Positions 39,001 to 45,000 of a DNA stretch of 64,000 nucleotides are shown here, piece by piece. Source of the DNA: Escherichia coli. GTDB lineage: Bacteria; Pseudomonadota; Gammaproteobacteria; Enterobacterales; Enterobacteriaceae. A program made the position numbers. Location: NCBI RefSeq assembly GCF_011045215.1, contig NZ_CP049201.1. One strand, written 5' to 3'. The stretch's first letter is position 1; every line of letters starts with the position of its first letter.

Positions 39001-42000
39001 TGGAAGGCGGAATTCTGTATCATCTGAACGTGAAAGTTGGCGATATAGTTGAACAGGGCCAGCCGCTGGCGCAGCTTAACCGCACTAAAACGGAATCCGA
39101 CGTCCAGGAAGCGATGTCGCGGCTGTACGCTGCGCTGGCAACCTCGGCGCGGCTGCGGGCGGAAGTGAGCAATAAACCGCTGGTCTTCCCTGACGAACTG
39201 AATAAATTCCCCGAACTTATCGAGTCGGAAACGGCGTTGTACAACACTCGCCGCGACGGGTTGAACAAAGCCACCACCGGGCTGACGCAGGGGATTAGCC
39301 TGGTCAACCGTGAACTGGCGATGACCCAGCCGCTGGTGAAACAGGGGGCGGCGAGCAGCGTCGAAGTGCTGCGCCTGCAACGCCAGGCCAATGAACTGGA
39401 AAACAAACTCAGCGACGTGCGCACGCAATACTACGTTCAGGCGCGCGAAGAGTTAGCAAAAGCCAATGCGGAAGTGGAAACCCAGCGTTCGGTGATCCGT
39501 GGACGGGAAGACTCTCTCACCAGGCTCAACTTTACCGCGCCGGTGCGAGGCATTGTTCAGGATATTGATGTCACCACGGTTGGCGGCGTCATCGCCCCCG
39601 GTGGTAAACTGATGACCATCGTGCCGCTGGATGAGCAACTGCTGATTGAGGCAAAAATCTCCCCGCGCGATGTGGCGTTTATCCATCCGGGGCAAAAATC
39701 GCTGGTGAAAATAACTGCCTACGATTACTCCATCTACGGCGGCCTGCCGGGAGAAGTAGCGGTGATATCACCAGACACCGTGCAGGATGAAGTGCGGCGT
39801 GATGTTTATTACTATCGGGTGTACATTCGCACTTTCAGCAACCATCTGGAAAATAAACATAAACAGCAGTTTCCGATATTTCCCGGTATGGTGGCGACGG
39901 TCGATATCCGCACCGGCAAAAAAAGCGTGCTGGATTATCTGTTGAAACCCTTTAACAAAGCACAGGAGGCGTTGCGCGAACGATGAACATTAGCGATGTA
40001 GCAAAAATTACCGGCCTGACCAGCAAAGCCATTCGCTTCTATGAAGAGAAGGGGCTGGTGACGCCGCCGATGCGCAGCGAAAATGGTTATCGAACCTACA
40101 CGCAGCAGCATCTCAACGAATTGACCTTACTGCGCCAGGCGCGCCAGGTGGGCTTTAACCTGGAAGAGAGCGGCGAGCTGGTAAATCTGTTTAACGACCC
40201 GCAGCGTCACAGTGCCGACGTCAAACGTCGTACGCTGGAGAAGGTGGCGGAGATCGAACGGCATATCGAAGAACTGCAATCCATGCGCAACCAGTTACTG
40301 GCGCTGGCGAATGCCTGCCCCGGTGATGACAGTGCCGACTGCCCGATTATCGAAAATCTCTCCGGCTGCTGTCATCATCGGGCGGGGTGAAAATCAGTTA
40401 ATCCCCGTTTGCACTGAAAGAATATGCTGCAAACTTTCTATCATAATGCGCCCCGACTGAAATAAGCCTTCCTGGATTTCGTTGTTAACATTCACAGCGT
40501 GAACCAGGGAGGCTAATAATACTACTTGCAAGAAGGCAAAAATAAACGCACCGATAATCATAATATGCGTCAGGGGTATTTTACTTTGCTCCTTCATTTT
40601 AAATAACCCACAAACTGGCCTTCTTTCATTAAGGCGACTTTTCCTGTGTGATGATAAACAATGACGTTATACAGACCTGACTGATAAACAGTGGCATCTT
40701 TATTGTCTTCATCAATTGCACATAATGAATCATTGAGATAAGCAAAGTTTTTACTGCTCATTCTAAAGGTCATGCCAAATCCTTTATAAATGGCTTTCTT
40801 TGCCGCCTGGGCGTGTTGTGCGGCTTCTGCATTTTTAAATGCCTGTGCCTCGGATGCACTTAAAATAGCCGTCTGGCGCTGCTGTTCTGCGAGATAACAG
40901 GTGTCATGGCTGACGCCCTGCGCCTGGCAATCTGCGATGCGGGAAGTGGGTGAACTACAGCCAGCCAGTAATATAACCGCCAGCAGGGAAAACGATTTAA
41001 TGGAGCTATTCATCATTGTTAACCTTAAATAATGTACAAATTAATGAAGAGGTGAACCCGGCAAGCTTCCTTGCTCTTATTTATATTGAGGATTGAAATA
41101 TTAGAACGAATATCCCACGCCGACACCTGCGCCGAAATCAGATTGTGTATCCGCAGAAATACCGGCTTTAAGTACCGTATGCGTTCCGGCATTAAATGAT
41201 GTTCCGACAGACACCGCAGATTCACCGTTGAAGGTTCCCGCTCCCGCTGACACCATCATCACGTCACCGGTTTTCACCTGTGGTTGTGAGGCGATAGCGA
41301 TGGCAGATGCAGTTCCCGCATTGGCTTCTTTACGATTGTCATCAACTTCGTTTTTCAGCGAATCGAAATGGTTATTGAGCGTGTTAATTTGCTGGCTGTT
41401 ATCAGCGACCCGGTTTTGGGTGTTGGTTAACTGTTGCTGCGTTTGGGTTACGTCTTGTGACAGGCTGTCAATTTGTTCATGTGCCTGGGCAGACTCCTGC
41501 GCCAGACTTTGCATTTGTTTATCGTATTGAGTCCTTTCATTTTGCTGTTGTACTGCCACATCGGTTGTCAGCGCATTCATTTTCTGCCCTTGTTCAGTGG
41601 CGGTGCGCTGATTAGCCTCATTTTGAGCCGCCAGTCTGGCATTAATCATTTCCTGATAATGCGCGGTATTTTGCGTATCTCCAGTCGCGGCGAGCGTTTT
41701 TTGTGTGGCTACGATCTGCGCCTGTTGCTCTGTAATTTGCGTTTGCTGGGCGTCAGTTACCGCAGACTGTCGGGCGTTGATCATGCTCTGATAACGGGCA
41801 GTTGTCTGTACATCACCTGTAGCGGCAACGGTTTTTTGTCCTGCGTCAGGATCTGTCTGGACAGTGGGAGTCTGAGTGGTATCAGGTGTTTCAGAAGGGA
41901 TGTAGTGATGTTCAGTCAAATAGGTATACGCAGCGGGGCTGTTGTCTGTGCGTTCTAAAAAGCGGGTAATCTTCTGCTCAATCTCCGATTGCGACATGCC

Positions 42001-45000
42001 AGAGTTAATGGCTGAAAGCTCTGTTGCCGCCGCTTCAATGGTATCACCAGCTAAAACAACAGGGCTGGATGTTGCTGAAATTATGAGTGCCAGTAAAGCT
42101 ACGTTTACAGTTTTCATTCATTTTCTCTTGTTCAAAATAAGTCGCATTAATGTTTCTATAAGAAACAAATAATATTGTTTTAAGAAATAAACTACGTTGC
42201 AATTTAATCGAAATCTACGCCGCCATTTGTGTGATGTAAAGCGCATTTTTGTCTGGTGTAAGCGTAAACACCACAAATAAGAAACAAAAATGGTTTCTTA
42301 TATAAATAAAAAAGGAAATTATTTCGTACTCTTTCAATGTAAAAAAGAGTAAAGACTTGTTTTGATAAGCGAAATAAATTCTGTTTCTGGACTAAACGTG
42401 AAGCGGTTCCTGATGTGTGCTAAAATGCGTTTCTTTGATAAATCTCAATTTTTAAGAGGTTTACGCCAGGCAGGAAAATTTAAATGAATGAATTTGAGAA
42501 GATTTTTAATGAAATGAATCTGGACCGGGCATTGCTACCGATCCTTTTTCGTTCGAACCGGTCGACAGTGTGGAAGTATTTAAGCGGCGATAGTACGGCT
42601 CCTGCCTCTGCCATGTCGCTGATTATGCTGTTGCAGTTGATACAGAAACGAAACCCCGATCTGTTAGCCGAATGGTTAACGCTTTCTGATTTCACCATTC
42701 CGCCAGAAGTTTACCTGGACCAGCCTGATTACTGGAAAGGGTGGGTGTATACCCAACATAAGGTCAATAAAAACGTCCTGGAATATCTAAAAAAACACTA
42801 TCCGGATGAAGACCAAAAAAGTATGGGTAAAGGCCGGGAAGAGTAATTTTGCCTCTACTCGGCTATATGCCGGATGCGGCGCAAGCGCCTTATCTGGCCT
42901 ACGATTCGGGCATATTTTGTAGGCATGATAAGACGCGTCAGCGTCGCATCAGGCGATGACCGCACGGATGATCAGCGTTATCCCTTCTATCGCAATGACT
43001 TCAACATGCGTACCTGCGCCGAGATCCTCGCTGGCGCTGACAGGCCATGAACTGTCACCGACGCGCATATGACCGCGCCCGTTGACCAGCGGAGATTCCA
43101 GCACAAAACGTCGGCCAATCAGCTGCTGCCCGCGCTGGTTTAAATGACTGTCGCTGTGCTTTTGTTCGCGCACCCGCCGCGACAACCATTTCCACCACAG
43201 CCAGGCGGCGAGCAGCGTCAGGACGGCAAACATCACCCCTTGCCACTCCCAACCCAGCGGCACCAGCCAGACCACCAGGCCGGTAATCACCGCTGCCACG
43301 CCGCTCCACAACAAATAACCATTTCCGCCCAGCATCTCGGCTGCCAGCAGCAAACCGCCGAGACTGAGCCAGAAAATATGTGGATGAACGACCATTAACT
43401 CCATCATGGCTGAGTCCGCTTGTTGGCGCTGTCTTTCACCAGCTCGGCAATCCCGGCAATCGACCCCATCAGGCTGCTGGCCTCTAATGGCATCATCACT
43501 ACTTTGCTGTTACTGGAGGAACCGATCTGCTGTAACGCTTCGGTGTATTTCTGCGCTACGAAGTAGTTCACCGCCTGAATATCACCGGAGGCGATGGCTT
43601 CAGACACCATTTTGGTGGCGCGGGCTTCTGCTTCTGCGGAACGTTCACGCGCTTCAGCCTGTAAAAACGCCGACTGACGTTCGCCTTCCGCTTTCAGGAT
43701 TTGCGACTGTTTTTCACCTTCGGCTTTGAGGATTTCCGCCTGACGGATCCCTTCCGCTTCGAGGATGTAAGCGCGTTTGGTACGTTCCGCTTTCATCTGC
43801 GCGTTCATTGAAGAGATAAGCTCTGCCGGTGGGCGCACGTCGCGAATTTCAATACGGGTGACTTTAATCCCCCACGGGTTGGTGGCTTCATCGACAATAC
43901 GCAGCAGGCGTGAGTTGATGCTGTCGCGCTGAGAGAGCATTTCGTCAAGTTCCATTGAACCCAACACGGTACGGATGTTAGTCATGGTCAGGTTGATGAT
44001 CGCCAGCTCCAGATTGCTGACTTCATAGGCAGCGCGTGGCGCGTCAATCACCTGAATAAAACAGACTGCGTCGATGGTAACGTTGGCGTTATCTTTCGAG
44101 ATAACTTCCTGGGAAGGGATATCGAGCACTTGCTCCATCATATTGATCTTGCGACCAATGCGATCCATAAACGGCACTACCAGACTGAGCCCCGGCTGTA
44201 ACGTTTTGGTATAGCGACCAAAACGTTCTACCGTCCATTGATAGCCCTGCGGCACGATTTTGACGCCCGCGCCGACAATGACCAGCGCGACAAAAATGAG
44301 AATCGGGATAAAGATAAGCATCGGAAAAACCTCCTGTTGTACCGTCCATAATCAGCAAAATTGCTGCTTGATTAAACAAATTATACCTGATTACTGAAAG
44401 AGAGTTCCCCCTTATTCCTGCGAAGGATAAACTGTTTTTAGTAAAAATCAGAAAAAGGGAACAGCGATGCAGGAAAATAGTCCTTTGCTTCAGCTACAAA
44501 ACGTAGGATATCTGGCGGGTGATGCGAAGATTCTTAATAACATCAATTTTTCGCTGCGTGCTGGCGAATTTAAGTTAATTACCGGTCCTTCTGGTTGTGG
44601 CAAAAGTACGCTGCTAAAAATAGTTGCTTCATTGATCAGCCCAACCAGCGGAACGTTACTGTTTGAAGGTGAGGATGTCAGCACACTAAAGCCAGAAATC
44701 TACCGCCAGCAAGTCTCTTACTGCGCCCAGACACCGACGCTGTTTGGCGATACGGTATACGATAATCTGATCTTTCCCTGGCAGATCCGTAACCGGCAGC
44801 CTGACCCAGCCATTTTTCTCGATTTTCTCGAACGCTTCGCCTTGCCGGACAGCATTTTGACGAAAAATATCGCCGAGCTATCTGGTGGTGAAAAACAACG
44901 CATCTCACTGATTCGTAACCTGCAATTTATGCCGAAGGTTTTATTGCTGGATGAAATAACCAGTGCGCTGGATGAAAGTAATAAACATAACGTTAATGAG

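What the first reader, a model, noticed from the sequence alone, without database searches (positions are those of the whole stretch)
40391..42948. AT-rich islet encoding a YadA-anchor mini-autotransporter, a lipoprotein and a divergent small ORF between cueR and ybbJ
As I recall, cueR and ybbJ are adjacent in K-12. Here about 2.5 kb of low-GC DNA intervenes. It carries a 338-aa secreted protein with a Gln-rich coiled-coil stalk, two internal ~45-aa repeats and a C-terminal YadA-type anchor (…ASQPQ…GVGVGYSF), i.e. a short trimeric-autotransporter-like adhesin. Directly downstream is a 140-aa lipoprotein (lipobox LLAGC), and upstream is a divergent 120-aa ORF; REP elements mark the junction with ybbJ. 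A lipoprotein partnered with a trimeric autotransporter resembles the Salmonella SadB-SadA arrangement, in which the lipoprotein aids surface display. The islet sits next to, but is transcribed opposite to, the T1SS adhesin island, giving two adhesin systems at one hotspot.
Basis: partly seen in the sequence, partly recalled or inferred. Interest (0 to 1): 0.7.

Follow-up and report, generated by a model that had tools for sequence, protein, structure and literature searches.

The report
Known E. coli islet OI-29: mini-autotransporter
This is the already-described accessory islet OI-29 of pathogenic E. coli; its main gene looks by sequence like a short surface fibre anchored in the outer membrane, yet the literature calls the same gene GmrA, a DNA-binding activator of flagella, and nobody has reconciled the two.

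Summary
Between cueR and ybbJ lie about 2.6 kb of AT-rich DNA. They carry a 338-aa protein with a signal peptide, two 45-aa repeats, a heptad coiled coil and a YadA anchor (Pfam E 2.6e-11). There is also a 140-aa lipoprotein, a divergent 120-aa ORF and a REP pair.

It is not new. It is O-island 29 of O157:H7 (z0638-z0640; probably Sakai S-loop 43, "Saa-like protein", 2007). It is present in 1401 of 5426 complete E. coli genomes, and RefSeq calls the protein a YadA family autotransporter adhesin.

The deletion and cloning primers of Yang et al. 2018 flank exactly this ORF. Their "transcriptional activator GmrA" is therefore this predicted outer-membrane protein. It is acidic (pI 4.6) and has no recognisable DNA-binding domain.

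The lipoprotein is not SadB-like in sequence, fold or gene order. It does follow a YadA-anchor gene in 14 of 26 species, so a functional partnership is plausible but untested.

Verdict: known islet, TAA reading supported, SadB analogy only loose. The useful product is the unreconciled conflict with the GmrA literature.

The parts
40391..42977 (.). Accessory islet, equivalent to O-island 29 of EHEC O157:H7. The left edge lies directly after the cueR stop codon. The right edge lies inside the last ~9 codons of ybbJ.
   Evidence: Comparison with the empty site of ETEC H10407 (L006). The OI-29 deletion primers of PMC5826968 map to 40353-40390 and 42958-42996 with 0 mismatches. Low GC. Present in 1401 of 5426 genomes.
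40394..40597 (-). 67-aa predicted single-span membrane protein, last gene of the operon. Its start overlaps the lipoprotein stop codon (ATGA).
   Evidence: ORF. Best 19-residue hydropathy 2.65 at residues 14-32. Annotated in RefSeq. 46% identical homologue in the same position in Pseudocitrobacter. Found only in the Escherichia/Pseudocitrobacter clade and L012. No Pfam, NCBIfam or PHROG hit.
40594..41016 (-). 140-aa lipoprotein (z0638). It has lipobox LLAG|C with Ser at +2, a conserved Cys pair (C30, C40), a long helix, and a C-terminal domain of 8 beta-strands.
41017..41100 (-). 84-nt spacer between the TAA and lipoprotein genes. It contains a short palindrome (41060-41075) but no terminator-like site on the coding (-) strand, which is consistent with co-transcription.
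   Evidence: Published RNA-seq shows z0638, z0639 and z0640 all expressed in DMEM (RPKM 20, 96, 44) and all falling to 0 on HeLa cells.
41101..42117 (-). 338-aa YadA-family trimeric-autotransporter-type protein (z0639, published as GmrA; probably Sakai ECs0548, 'Saa-like'; the ECs number was not mapped here).
   Evidence: ORF. The gmrA deletion, cloning, tagging and qPCR primers all map to this ORF. Pfam YadA_anchor. PDB anchor hits. PHROG 'adhesin' 4.5e-21. Database names are 'YadA family autotransporter adhesin' or 'Adhesin'.
42049..42117 (-). Codons 1-23: Sec-type signal peptide MKTVNVALLALIISATSSPVVLA|GD.
   Evidence: Hydrophobic core scores 2.05 at residues 6-24. Small residues occupy the last and third-last positions before the putative cleavage site (V-L-A). 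The same design recurs in diverged homologues...PSAFA|GD and ...APALA|S. Cleavage itself is inferred; no signal-peptide predictor was available.
41563..41832 (-). Codons 96-185: two tandem 45-aa repeats in the stalk.
   Evidence: Local alignment score 105 against shuffles of 32 +/- 6. Other E. coli alleles carry one or two copies of an extra repeat block of about 123 aa. These alleles are 477 and 600 aa as listed from a TTG start, or 471 and 594 aa from the first ATG.
41308..41562 (-). Codons 186-270: continuous heptad coiled coil leading into the anchor.
   Evidence: In one register, ILMFV fill 50% of a/d positions and 3% of other positions. No shuffle out of 2000 reaches this.
41104..41283 (-). 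Codons 279-338: YadA-type membrane anchor ending in ...GVGVGYSF with a C-terminal aromatic residue.
   Evidence: Pfam PF03895, model positions 1-60 of 60, E 2.6e-11. Aligns to AtaA, Hia and YadA anchors.
42118..42483 (.). 366-bp divergent regulatory region with 30% GC. It holds six copies of the hexamer GTTTCT/AGAAAC, starting at 42152, 42161, 42280, 42293, 42383 and 42429. One pair forms the palindrome GTTTCTATAAGAAAC.
   Evidence: 6 copies against 0.25 expected; 0 of 5000 shuffles reach 6. Length (365-370 bp) and motif are conserved in Escherichia spp., Pseudocitrobacter and a metagenomic locus. That these are operators for z0640 is inference.
42212..42240 (-). Candidate sigma-70 promoter of the TAA operon: -35 TTTACA, 17 nt, -10 TAGATT.
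   Evidence: Promoter scan. The block is conserved across E. coli, Pseudocitrobacter, P. faecalis and the metagenomic locus in alignment A3. Not tested experimentally.
42418..42426 (+). Candidate extended -10 element (TGcTAAAAT) for z0640.
   Evidence: TGnTAAAAT is conserved in 8 of 10 aligned intergenic regions. It was read from the alignment and not called by the scan tool.
42484..42846 (+). 120-aa divergent ORF (z0640), a predicted Xre/Cro-type helix-turn-helix protein and the likely local regulator.
42869..42954 (.). Pair of REP elements in inverted orientation (BIME-like) at the ybbJ junction. The second REP overlaps the ybbJ stop codon.
   Evidence: Inverted repeats. REP consensus match. 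Sub-threshold Rfam naRNA4 (REP-derived) hits. Copies elsewhere in E. coli genomes. Absent from the empty site.

Best explanation
The region is the accessory islet OI-29. It is a self-contained surface-protein module with three parts.

1. A divergent Xre-type HTH protein (z0640) probably controls a conserved AT-rich 366-bp intergenic region carrying six GTTTCT/AGAAAC sites.
2. From that region an operon is transcribed that encodes a short, head-less trimeric autotransporter (z0639).
3. The operon continues with a lipoprotein (z0638) and a 67-aa inner-membrane protein.

Proposed mechanism:
- The 338-aa protein is exported by Sec through a 23-residue signal peptide.
- Three C-terminal four-strand segments assemble, with BAM, into a 12-strand outer-membrane barrel.
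- The passenger threads out and forms a coiled-coil fibre. The fibre consists of the heptad segment 186-270 plus two 45-aa repeats, tipped by a small conserved N-terminal domain (residues 24-80).
- The lipoprotein and the small membrane protein are periplasm-facing accessory factors of this fibre, acting in biogenesis or anchoring. They are analogous in role to SadB or TpgA but not related to them.

Shown here: gene content, anchor homology, heptads, repeats, accessory status, conserved synteny, and identity with OI-29/gmrA.

Inferred: trimerisation, surface exposure, the helper role of the lipoprotein, the operator role of the hexamers, and regulation by z0640.

The published motility/fliA phenotype of 'GmrA' is most likely an indirect consequence of making this envelope protein. 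Direct promoter binding is unlikely.
For: TAA identity:
- YadA_anchor over the full model, E 2.6e-11.
- Alignment to solved AtaA, Hia and YadA anchors.
- Hydrophobic N-terminal signal sequence, with the same design in diverged homologues.
- Heptad coiled coil at residues 186-270, 0 of 2000 shuffles.
- PHROG 'adhesin' E 4.5e-21.
- RefSeq and UniRef names are 'YadA family autotransporter adhesin' or 'Adhesin'.
- An OI-29-like 'Saa-like protein' is listed in PMC2323221.

Module:
- Of 26 species loci with a full-length lipoprotein homologue, 14 have a YadA-anchor ORF immediately upstream on the same strand. Eight of those also have the divergent z0640 homologue.
- All four genes are conserved in Pseudocitrobacter at other chromosomal sites.
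- The lipoprotein and 67-aa genes overlap by 4 nt.

Regulator:
- Hexamer enriched 6 against 0.25 expected.
- Conserved promoter-like blocks.

Identity with OI-29/gmrA: the primers of PMC5826968 map exactly.

Against a direct transcription-factor role:
- pI 4.6, with 36 acidic and 19 basic residues.
- No DNA-binding family in Pfam or NCBIfam, only sub-threshold coiled-coil matches such as SMC at 22.9 bits against a cut-off of 567.
- The EMSA protein carried a His tag in front of the signal peptide. The ChIP protein carried 3xFLAG on the terminal Phe of the barrel. Both would be expected to keep the protein out of its normal pathway (inference from established OMP biogenesis).
Against: - PMC5826968 reports EMSA and ChIP-qPCR binding of this protein to the fliA promoter. 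It also reports loss of motility in the deletion mutant, complementation, and a motility gain in K-12 carrying the gene. I cannot explain these data mechanistically.
- The same paper found no change in HeLa or Caco-2 adherence on deleting OI-29, and no motility phenotype for z0638 or z0640.
- No canonical TAA head domain is present.
- Trimerisation and surface exposure were not modelled or measured here.
- About half of the lipoprotein homologues (12 of 26 species) are not next to a detectable YadA-anchor gene. The lipoprotein therefore has, or can have, a TAA-independent role.
- The HTH call for z0640 rests on a predicted model. Sequence matches are not significant.
Confidence: 0.8

Rival explanations
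1. The literature reading: the 338-aa protein (GmrA) is a cytoplasmic transcriptional activator that binds the fliA promoter directly. The YadA-anchor similarity is then irrelevant, or the protein moonlights.
For: PMC5826968 reports the following:
- The gmrA deletion lowers fliA, fliC and motA expression and motility.
- The defect is complemented in trans.
- EMSA with competition shows binding.
- ChIP-qPCR shows 7.75-fold enrichment of the fliA promoter.
- Epistasis with fliA.
- The same phenotype in orthologue deletions in eight strains.
- K-12 gains motility with the gene.

The claim is repeated in reviews.
Against: - The primers show that GmrA is the protein with a signal peptide and a full YadA anchor.
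- It is acidic, pI 4.6.
- It has no DNA-binding domain in Pfam or NCBIfam. The best non-anchor hits are sub-threshold coiled-coil matches to SMC/Rad50-type models. These are probably what the paper's CDD search called a 'DNA-binding domain'; this is an inference, because the figure is not held.
- Both binding assays used constructs expected to block export: His tag before the signal peptide, FLAG on the C-terminal Phe.
Confidence: 0.07
2. The TAA is real, but the lipoprotein and the 67-aa protein are merely neighbours with an unrelated envelope function. For example, the lipoprotein could be a small beta-barrel inhibitor or binding protein of the PliC/MliC/ACP type. In that case there is no helper system.
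For: - 12 of 26 species carry the lipoprotein without a detectable adjacent YadA-anchor gene.
- Short lipoproteins (63-69 aa in most species) with only the N-terminal Cys-pair domain occur alone in Buttiauxella, Aeromonas and Pseudomonas.
- Deleting z0638 gave no phenotype in the one assay published.
Against: - 14 of 26 is far above what chance adjacency to a rare gene class would give.
- The order TAA then lipoprotein, on the same strand, holds in every case seen.
- Linkage persists across different chromosomal sites and genera.
- The transcripts change together.
Confidence: 0.25
3. The 338-aa allele is a decayed remnant: a stalk-deleted, functionless leftover of a longer adhesin.
For: - It is the shortest allele seen. 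Other E. coli carry 477- and 600-aa forms (471 and 594 aa from the first ATG) with one or two extra blocks of about 123 aa.
- Escherichia sp. and E. whittamii carry 579- and 415-aa forms.
- No head domain.
- No adherence phenotype.
Against: - The ORF is intact with signal peptide and anchor.
- It is 99% identical between this window and O157:H7.
- The exact sequence is seen on at least 1000 contigs.
- It is transcribed, RPKM 96.
- Its deletion has a phenotype.
- Length variation by whole repeat units is normal for TAA stalks (established knowledge).
Confidence: 0.08

Closest known systems
O-island 29 of E. coli O157:H7 EDL933 (z0638, z0639/gmrA, z0640). Probably the same as S-loop 43 / ECs0548 of strain Sakai, which was not mapped here.
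   Different: The window is not O157: 3 amino-acid differences in the TAA, and the O157 copy spans 76 bp more (2,777 against 2,701 bp). The literature lists three genes; the 67-aa ORF is a fourth. Here the neighbouring giant adhesin gene is an intact 6,925-aa ORF, whereas it is reported as frameshifted in O157 and EAEC 042 (PMC2808357).
Small coiled-coil trimeric autotransporters of the Oca/YadA family, such as Saa and the prophage-borne Eib proteins of E. coli, and head-less or small-headed forms such as HadA and NadA. The last two are recalled from memory and were not tested.
   Same: Signal peptide, coiled-coil stalk with repeat-number variation, and a C-terminal YadA anchor. PHROG 'adhesin' family match over residues 95-338. 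An OI-29-like gene was called 'Saa-like' in PMC2323221.
   Different: No recognised head, neck or Ig-binding module. The N-terminal 55-residue domain matches no family. No ligand or adhesion phenotype is known, and deletion of OI-29 did not alter HeLa or Caco-2 adherence.
SadB-SadA of Salmonella, a lipoprotein that assists display of a trimeric autotransporter (PMC3953254)
   Same: A small lipoprotein gene kept in an operon-like arrangement with a TAA gene in Enterobacterales, and lost together with it in K-12-type strains.
   Different: - No sequence similarity to SadB or YajI, even with a family profile.
- No SadB-like nine-heptad coiled coil plus MATH/Ig sandwich retrieved.
- The gene lies downstream, not upstream.
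- Ser at +2 predicts outer-membrane rather than inner-membrane sorting (inference).
- There is an extra 67-aa membrane partner.
- The helper function is untested.
Xre/Cro-family HTH regulators, such as Aca2, Aca1, and the HTH domains of the MqsA and HigA2 antitoxins (for z0640)
   Different: No significant sequence match to any HTH family. It has an extra C-terminal helical region (residues ~70-110). No partner toxin or anti-CRISPR gene is present. DNA binding is untested.

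Membership tests
Trimeric autotransporter (type Vc secretion, YadA/Oca family) | C-terminal YadA-type membrane anchor (about 70 residues, four beta-strands, C-terminal aromatic residue) | tested here: met
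   Pfam PF03895, residues 279-338, model 1-60 of 60, E 2.6e-11. phmmer hits to AtaA 1.4e-7, Hia 4.8e-6 and YadA 0.009 anchors. The protein ends in ...GVGVGYSF.
Trimeric autotransporter (type Vc secretion, YadA/Oca family) | N-terminal Sec signal peptide | tested here: met
   Residues 1-23 are MKTVNVALLALIISATSSPVVLA|G. Hydropathy 2.05. The same design occurs in diverged homologues. No dedicated predictor was available, so the cleavage site is inferred.
Trimeric autotransporter (type Vc secretion, YadA/Oca family) | Coiled-coil stalk running into the anchor | tested here: met
   Residues 186-270: one heptad register puts ILMFV at 50% of a/d positions and 3% of other positions; 0 of 2000 shuffles reach this.
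Trimeric autotransporter (type Vc secretion, YadA/Oca family) | Recognised head or neck domain (typical of the family but not obligatory) | tested here: not met
   No Pfam or NCBIfam match N-terminal of the stalk. The conserved N-terminal domain (residues 24-80) is unclassified.
Trimeric autotransporter (type Vc secretion, YadA/Oca family) | Forms a heat-stable homotrimer exposed on the cell surface; adhesive activity | not testable with these tools
   The structure tool is monomer-only and both prediction jobs went to the other two proteins. The only related published test, deletion of OI-29, showed unchanged HeLa and Caco-2 adherence (PMC5826968).
SadB-type TAA export lipoprotein | Lipoprotein signal peptide with lipobox | tested here: met
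   LLAG|C at residues 16-20. The Cys is invariant in 23 homologues.
SadB-type TAA export lipoprotein | Sequence homology to SadB or its paralogue YajI | tested here: not met
   No hit to 4C47 or 2JWY with phmmer at E<=10 or with a profile of 23 family members at E<=10.
SadB-type TAA export lipoprotein | Fold: long N-terminal trimeric coiled coil plus C-terminal MATH/Ig-like beta-sandwich | tested here: not met
SadB-type TAA export lipoprotein | Gene directly upstream of the TAA gene in one operon | tested here: not met
   Here, and in all 14 linked species, the lipoprotein gene is downstream of the TAA gene. SadB lies 44 bp upstream of sadA.
SadB-type TAA export lipoprotein | Inner-membrane location; enhances TAA surface display | not testable with these tools
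   Ser/Thr/Val at +2 across the family predicts Lol-dependent outer-membrane sorting under the E. coli +2 rule (established knowledge, inference). The function is untested.
Xre/Cro-type HTH DNA-binding protein (z0640) | Helix-turn-helix fold of the lambda-repressor-like class | tested here: met
Xre/Cro-type HTH DNA-binding protein (z0640) | Significant sequence match to an HTH family model | tested here: not met
   Best hits are Pfam MqsA_antitoxin HTH region at E 0.12 (0.012 in one homologue) and Xre-like-HTH at 0.047. PDB profile search gives HigA2 at E 0.59.
Cytoplasmic transcriptional activator ('GmrA' as published) | Recognisable DNA-binding domain and cytoplasmic location | tested here: not met
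   No DNA-binding family in Pfam or NCBIfam, only sub-threshold coiled-coil matches such as SMC at 22.9 bits against a cut-off of 567. Signal peptide plus outer-membrane anchor are predicted. pI 4.6. The published EMSA and ChIP data cannot be re-examined here.
Accessory genomic islet (O-island 29) | Absent from K-12-type genomes at an otherwise conserved site; identical locus to published OI-29 | tested here: met
   Empty site with 0 nt between cueR and ybbJ in H10407. Present in 1401 of 5426 genomes. OI-29 primers map at both edges. No integrase or direct repeats in E. coli. A second Pseudocitrobacter faecalis copy lies next to a serine recombinase.

The most novel reading that the evidence does not exclude
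The HTH - head-less TAA - lipoprotein - small membrane protein module is a third, undescribed kind of TAA-plus-helper system, after SadB and TpgA. It is spread across Enterobacterales. The 2026 global TAA survey would have missed it, because that survey required a YadA head domain. In addition, making this outer-membrane fibre feeds back positively on class-II flagellar transcription (fliA) through an envelope signal. That would explain the published 'GmrA' phenotype without DNA binding, and would mean a protein cited as a transcription factor is in fact a surface protein.
Probability: 0.25. Interest if true: 0.55.

Novelty: already known. Interest (0 to 1): 0.38.

Why it matters
As a genome feature it is ordinary. 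It is a known, widely distributed E. coli islet whose main gene has been annotated as a YadA/Saa-like adhesin since 2007.

It matters for two reasons.

1. The same gene is cited in several papers, including three reviews, as a horizontally acquired transcription factor (GmrA) that binds the fliA promoter. Its sequence instead says exported outer-membrane autotransporter. The constructs used for the binding assays would have blocked export. Resolving this would either correct the EHEC flagellar-regulation literature or reveal an unusual link between a surface fibre and motility.

2. The conserved linkage of this head-less TAA with a novel lipoprotein, a 67-aa membrane protein and an Xre-type regulator gives a tractable candidate for a new TAA accessory system. 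Only SadB and TpgA are currently known in that role.

Tried and rejected
- Pfam for the lipoprotein: no hit at all.
- NCBIfam for the lipoprotein gave only sub-threshold N-terminal matches: TraV at 0.0013, 'XAC1346 family secretion chaperone' at 0.0017 and Lpp/OprI at 0.03. A literature search for XAC1346 found nothing, so this lead was dropped.
- PHROG 'Rz-like spanin' at E 0.029 matches only the lipobox and was ignored.
- Sequence-based proof that z0640 is an HTH protein failed. The call rests on the predicted fold.
- A known RNA in the islet: Rfam gave only sub-threshold REP-derived naRNA4 hits.
- A terminator between the TAA and lipoprotein genes: none was found on the coding strand.
- A DNA-binding domain in the TAA: none in Pfam or NCBIfam.
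- Heptad periodicity in the N-terminal domain and in the 45-aa repeats: not detected with a simple ILMFV a/d test. Their structure remains open.
- Papers noting that GmrA is a TAA: none found in the searchable library.
- A first attempt to read L002 and L003 as separate files failed for a trivial reason and was repeated.

Full report
**1. What is there**

The six-frame ORF list shows these genes:
- cueR at 39983-40390 (+)
- a 67-aa ORF at 40394-40597 (-)
- a 140-aa ORF at 40594-41016 (-)
- a 338-aa ORF at 41101-42117 (-)
- a 120-aa ORF at 42484-42846 (+)
- ybbJ at 42949-43407 (-)

GC content drops to 0.30-0.52 across the insert, against 0.55-0.62 on both sides. Two REP elements in inverted orientation sit at 42869-42902 and 42919-42954. 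It missed only the 67-aa ORF, whose start overlaps the lipoprotein stop codon (ATGA).

**2. The 338-aa protein**

- Pfam finds a full-length YadA_anchor at residues 279-338, E 2.6e-11.
- The same region aligns to the solved anchors of AtaA (1.4e-7), Hia (4.8e-6) and YadA (0.009).
- A PHROG family labelled 'adhesin' matches residues 95-338 at 4.5e-21.
- The N-terminus is a typical Sec signal (hydrophobic core, VLA|G). Its design, though not its sequence, recurs in diverged homologues.
- Residues 186-270 form an unbroken heptad pattern: ILMFV at 50% of a/d positions against 3% elsewhere, with 0 of 2000 shuffles reaching this.
- Residues 96-131 and 141-176 are a 45-aa tandem repeat, score 105 against 32 +/- 6 for shuffles.
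- No head domain is recognised. The N-terminal ~55 mature residues are conserved (40% identity to Pseudocitrobacter) but unclassified.

The protein is acidic, pI 4.6. By every sequence criterion I could test it is a short, head-less trimeric autotransporter. Trimerisation and surface exposure were not testable.

**3. It is a known islet**

- Megablast finds the region at >=80% coverage in 1401 of 5426 complete E. coli genomes, including O157:H7 at 98.5% identity. There it is annotated 'YadA family autotransporter adhesin', 'lipoprotein' and hypothetical proteins.
- ETEC H10407 shows the empty site, with the cueR stop codon directly abutting the ybbJ stop codon. Homology resumes inside the last ~9 codons of ybbJ, so the islet-bearing ybbJ ends ...LIIRAVIA instead of ...LHIRAVSS.
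- The literature calls this O-island 29, containing z0638, z0639 and z0640 (PMC5826968).
- Ogura et al. 2007 list ECs0548 in S-loop 43 as a 'Saa-like protein' related to adhesion. It is present in all O157 strains tested, in UTI89 and in APEC, and absent from K-12, CFT073 and 536 (PMC2323221). That distribution fits OI-29. I did not map the ECs number to the ORF.
- The EAEC 042 genome paper counts two trimeric autotransporters in that strain.
- Public databases name the exact window sequence 'YadA family autotransporter adhesin' or 'Adhesin', and it is seen on at least 1000 contigs.

**4. The conflict with 'GmrA'**

Yang et al. [quoted passage not shown]

Their primers map onto the window as follows:

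| Primer set | Position in the window | Consequence |
|---|---|---|
| gmrA deletion arms | 41063-41100 and 42118-42156 | Exactly flank the 338-aa ORF |
| z0638 deletion arms | Flank 40594-41016 | z0638 is the lipoprotein |
| z0640 deletion arm | Ends at 42483 | z0640 is the 120-aa ORF |
| pET28a insert | 41087-42117 | Full length; the N-terminal His tag sits in front of the signal peptide |
| ChIP construct | Reverse primer at 41104-42122 end of the ORF | 3xFLAG fused directly to the terminal Phe of the barrel |

GmrA is therefore the YadA-anchor protein.

From established knowledge of OMP biogenesis, both tags should keep the protein out of the Sec/BAM route. This is an inference.

Neither Pfam nor NCBIfam finds a DNA-binding domain. 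The strongest non-anchor matches are sub-threshold coiled-coil hits to SMC/Rad50-type models, for example TIGR02168 at 22.9 bits against a cut-off of 567. I suspect this is what the paper's CDD search displayed as a 'DNA-binding domain', but the figure is not held, so that too is inference.

The genetics in the paper cannot be dismissed:
- motility and fliA expression fall in the deletion mutant;
- the defect is complemented;
- the phenotype is reproduced in eight strains;
- K-12 gains motility with the gene.

I therefore rate 'direct transcription factor' as unlikely (0.07) and 'indirect effect of an envelope protein' as the better reading. The route to fliA is unexplained. Later reviews repeat the transcription-factor claim. 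I found no paper that notes the discrepancy.

**5. The lipoprotein and the SadB idea**

The 140-aa protein has these features:
- an invariant lipobox Cys;
- Ser/Thr/Val at +2;
- a conserved Cys pair (C30, C40);
- a long helix;
- a C-terminal 8-strand domain, pLDDT 81-89.

Tests against SadB were all negative:
- It has no Pfam family.
- It shows no sequence similarity to SadB or YajI, either alone or as a 23-member profile, even at E<=10.
- Foldseek finds nothing at E<=0.001.
- SadB is an inner-membrane trimer with nine heptads and a MATH-like sandwich, encoded 44 bp upstream of sadA. Here the gene is 84 bp downstream of the TAA gene.

Membership in the SadB family is therefore not met.

The functional analogy survives as a hypothesis because of synteny. 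A scan of one genome per species with the family alignment returned 51 loci. Of these, 26 have the full-length protein. Of those 26, 14 have a YadA-anchor ORF immediately upstream on the same strand. The genera include Escherichia, Pseudocitrobacter, Enterobacter, Phytobacter, Rahnella, Yersinia and Ewingella.

The other 12 species have the lipoprotein without a detectable TAA, so the link is strong but not obligatory.

[quoted passage not shown] It analysed only TAAs with a YadA head domain, which would exclude this head-less family.

**6. The divergent ORF and the control region**

- z0640 has no significant sequence match.
- Its homologues sit divergent from a YadA-anchor gene in Pseudocitrobacter, Rahnella, Yersinia aleksiciae, Ewingella and a metagenomic contig.
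- The intergenic region keeps its length (365-370 bp) in Escherichia, Pseudocitrobacter and the metagenomic locus.
- It contains six GTTTCT/AGAAAC hexamers against 0.25 expected, with 0 of 5000 shuffles reaching six. One pair forms the palindrome GTTTCTATAAGAAAC.
- A conserved -35 TTTACA / -10 TAGATT block on the minus strand lies at 42240-42212.
- A conserved TGnTAAAAT on the plus strand lies at 42418-42426.

I infer that z0640 is the local regulator and that the hexamers are its operators. Neither point was tested. By predicted fold, the DNA-binding protein of OI-29 is z0640, not z0639.

**7. Mobility and context**

- The module occurs at other sites:
  - between qmcA and fetA in Pseudocitrobacter;
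  - next to a serine recombinase, with a second tandem anchor-bearing gene, in P. faecalis;
  - between thiamine and sucrose genes in Enterobacter asburiae.
- OI-29 can be present without the neighbouring T1SS island.
- In this window the T1SS giant adhesin is an intact 6,925-aa ORF.

**8. Verdict**

- Observation: confirmed.
- Interpretation: partly supported. The TAA, the lipoprotein, the accessory status and the likely regulator hold. The lipoprotein is not a SadB relative, and adhesion is unproven.
- Novelty: already known (OI-29).
- The residual interest lies in two things: the unreconciled GmrA claim, and the conserved HTH-TAA-lipoprotein module as a candidate new TAA accessory system.

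Noticed in passing
L004:2271-4073 and L005:2303-3736 (RefSeq NZ_CP095529.1, NZ_CP115386.1): In strains with longer alleles of the TAA, RefSeq annotates only a 349-aa 'YadA-like family protein' starting at an internal Met with no signal peptide. The uninterrupted ORF is 600 or 477 aa as listed from a TTG start (594 or 471 aa from the first ATG) and begins with a normal signal peptide. This looks like a start-site mis-call that hides part of the gene: 753 nt in L004 and 384 nt in L005.
   Followed up: partly
L005:1090-1187 and L006:2090-2187 (upstream of cueR in strains lacking the T1SS island): Strains without the T1SS adhesin island still carry a 98-bp pseudogene fragment directly upstream of, and overlapping, cueR. 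It is annotated as frameshifted, incomplete and missing its N-terminus. It sits where the 3' end of the HlyD-family gene lies in T1SS-positive strains. This suggests the K-12-type arrangement is a deletion derivative rather than the ancestral state. I did not align the fragment to the HlyD gene.
   Followed up: no
window 38811-40390: cueR (39983-40390) overlaps the stop of the HlyD-family T1SS gene (38811-39986) by 4 nt on the same strand. In this strain the copper regulator therefore looks like the last gene of the T1SS adhesin operon.
   Followed up: no
window 8534-8973: Five identical REP elements (GCCTGATGCGACGCTTACGCGTCTTATCAGGCCTAC) lie at an exact 101-bp spacing, forming a tandem REP array.
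   Followed up: no
window 15871-36648: The giant T1SS substrate gene is one intact ORF of 6,925 aa here. The EAEC 042 genome paper (PMC2808357) reports the orthologue as frameshifted in both O157:H7 and EAEC 042.
   Followed up: no
L009-L011 (Pseudocitrobacter), L029 (Serratia silvae), L007/L038 (Symbiopectobacterium): The module keeps turning up near the same cueR-ybbJ-qmcA-fetA neighbourhood in other genera, but in different intergenic gaps. In Pseudocitrobacter it lies between qmcA and fetA. In Serratia silvae the HTH gene plus the lipoprotein, without a TAA, lie beside qmcA-ybbJ-cueR. In Symbiopectobacterium a truncated TAA and a split lipoprotein lie near ybbJ-qmcA. Why this neighbourhood recurs is unexplained.
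   Followed up: partly
L037, L039, L040, L042-L045, L047-L055, L058, L059, L061: Short lipoproteins (63-69 aa in most of these species, 82 aa in one) are homologous only to the N-terminal Cys-pair segment (C..G.....CY.AEQ.RQ) of the islet lipoprotein. They occur on their own in Buttiauxella, Atlantibacter, Silvania, Aeromonas and Pseudomonas. This N-terminal piece seems to be an independent small domain of unknown function.
   Followed up: no
L003:801-4532 (Pseudocitrobacter faecalis CP174503.1): A second copy of the module lies next to a 628-aa serine recombinase. It carries two tandem genes that both match the anchor profile (633 aa and 608 aa), followed by the lipoprotein and the small membrane protein. 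This suggests the module can travel on a mobile element.
   Followed up: partly
window 42949-42977 (3' end of ybbJ): The last few residues of YbbJ differ between islet-bearing strains (...LIIRAVIA) and islet-free strains (...LHIRAVSS), and the second REP overlaps the ybbJ stop codon. The published OI-29 deletion (40391-42957) also removes the ybbJ stop codon and its last two sense codons.
   Followed up: partly
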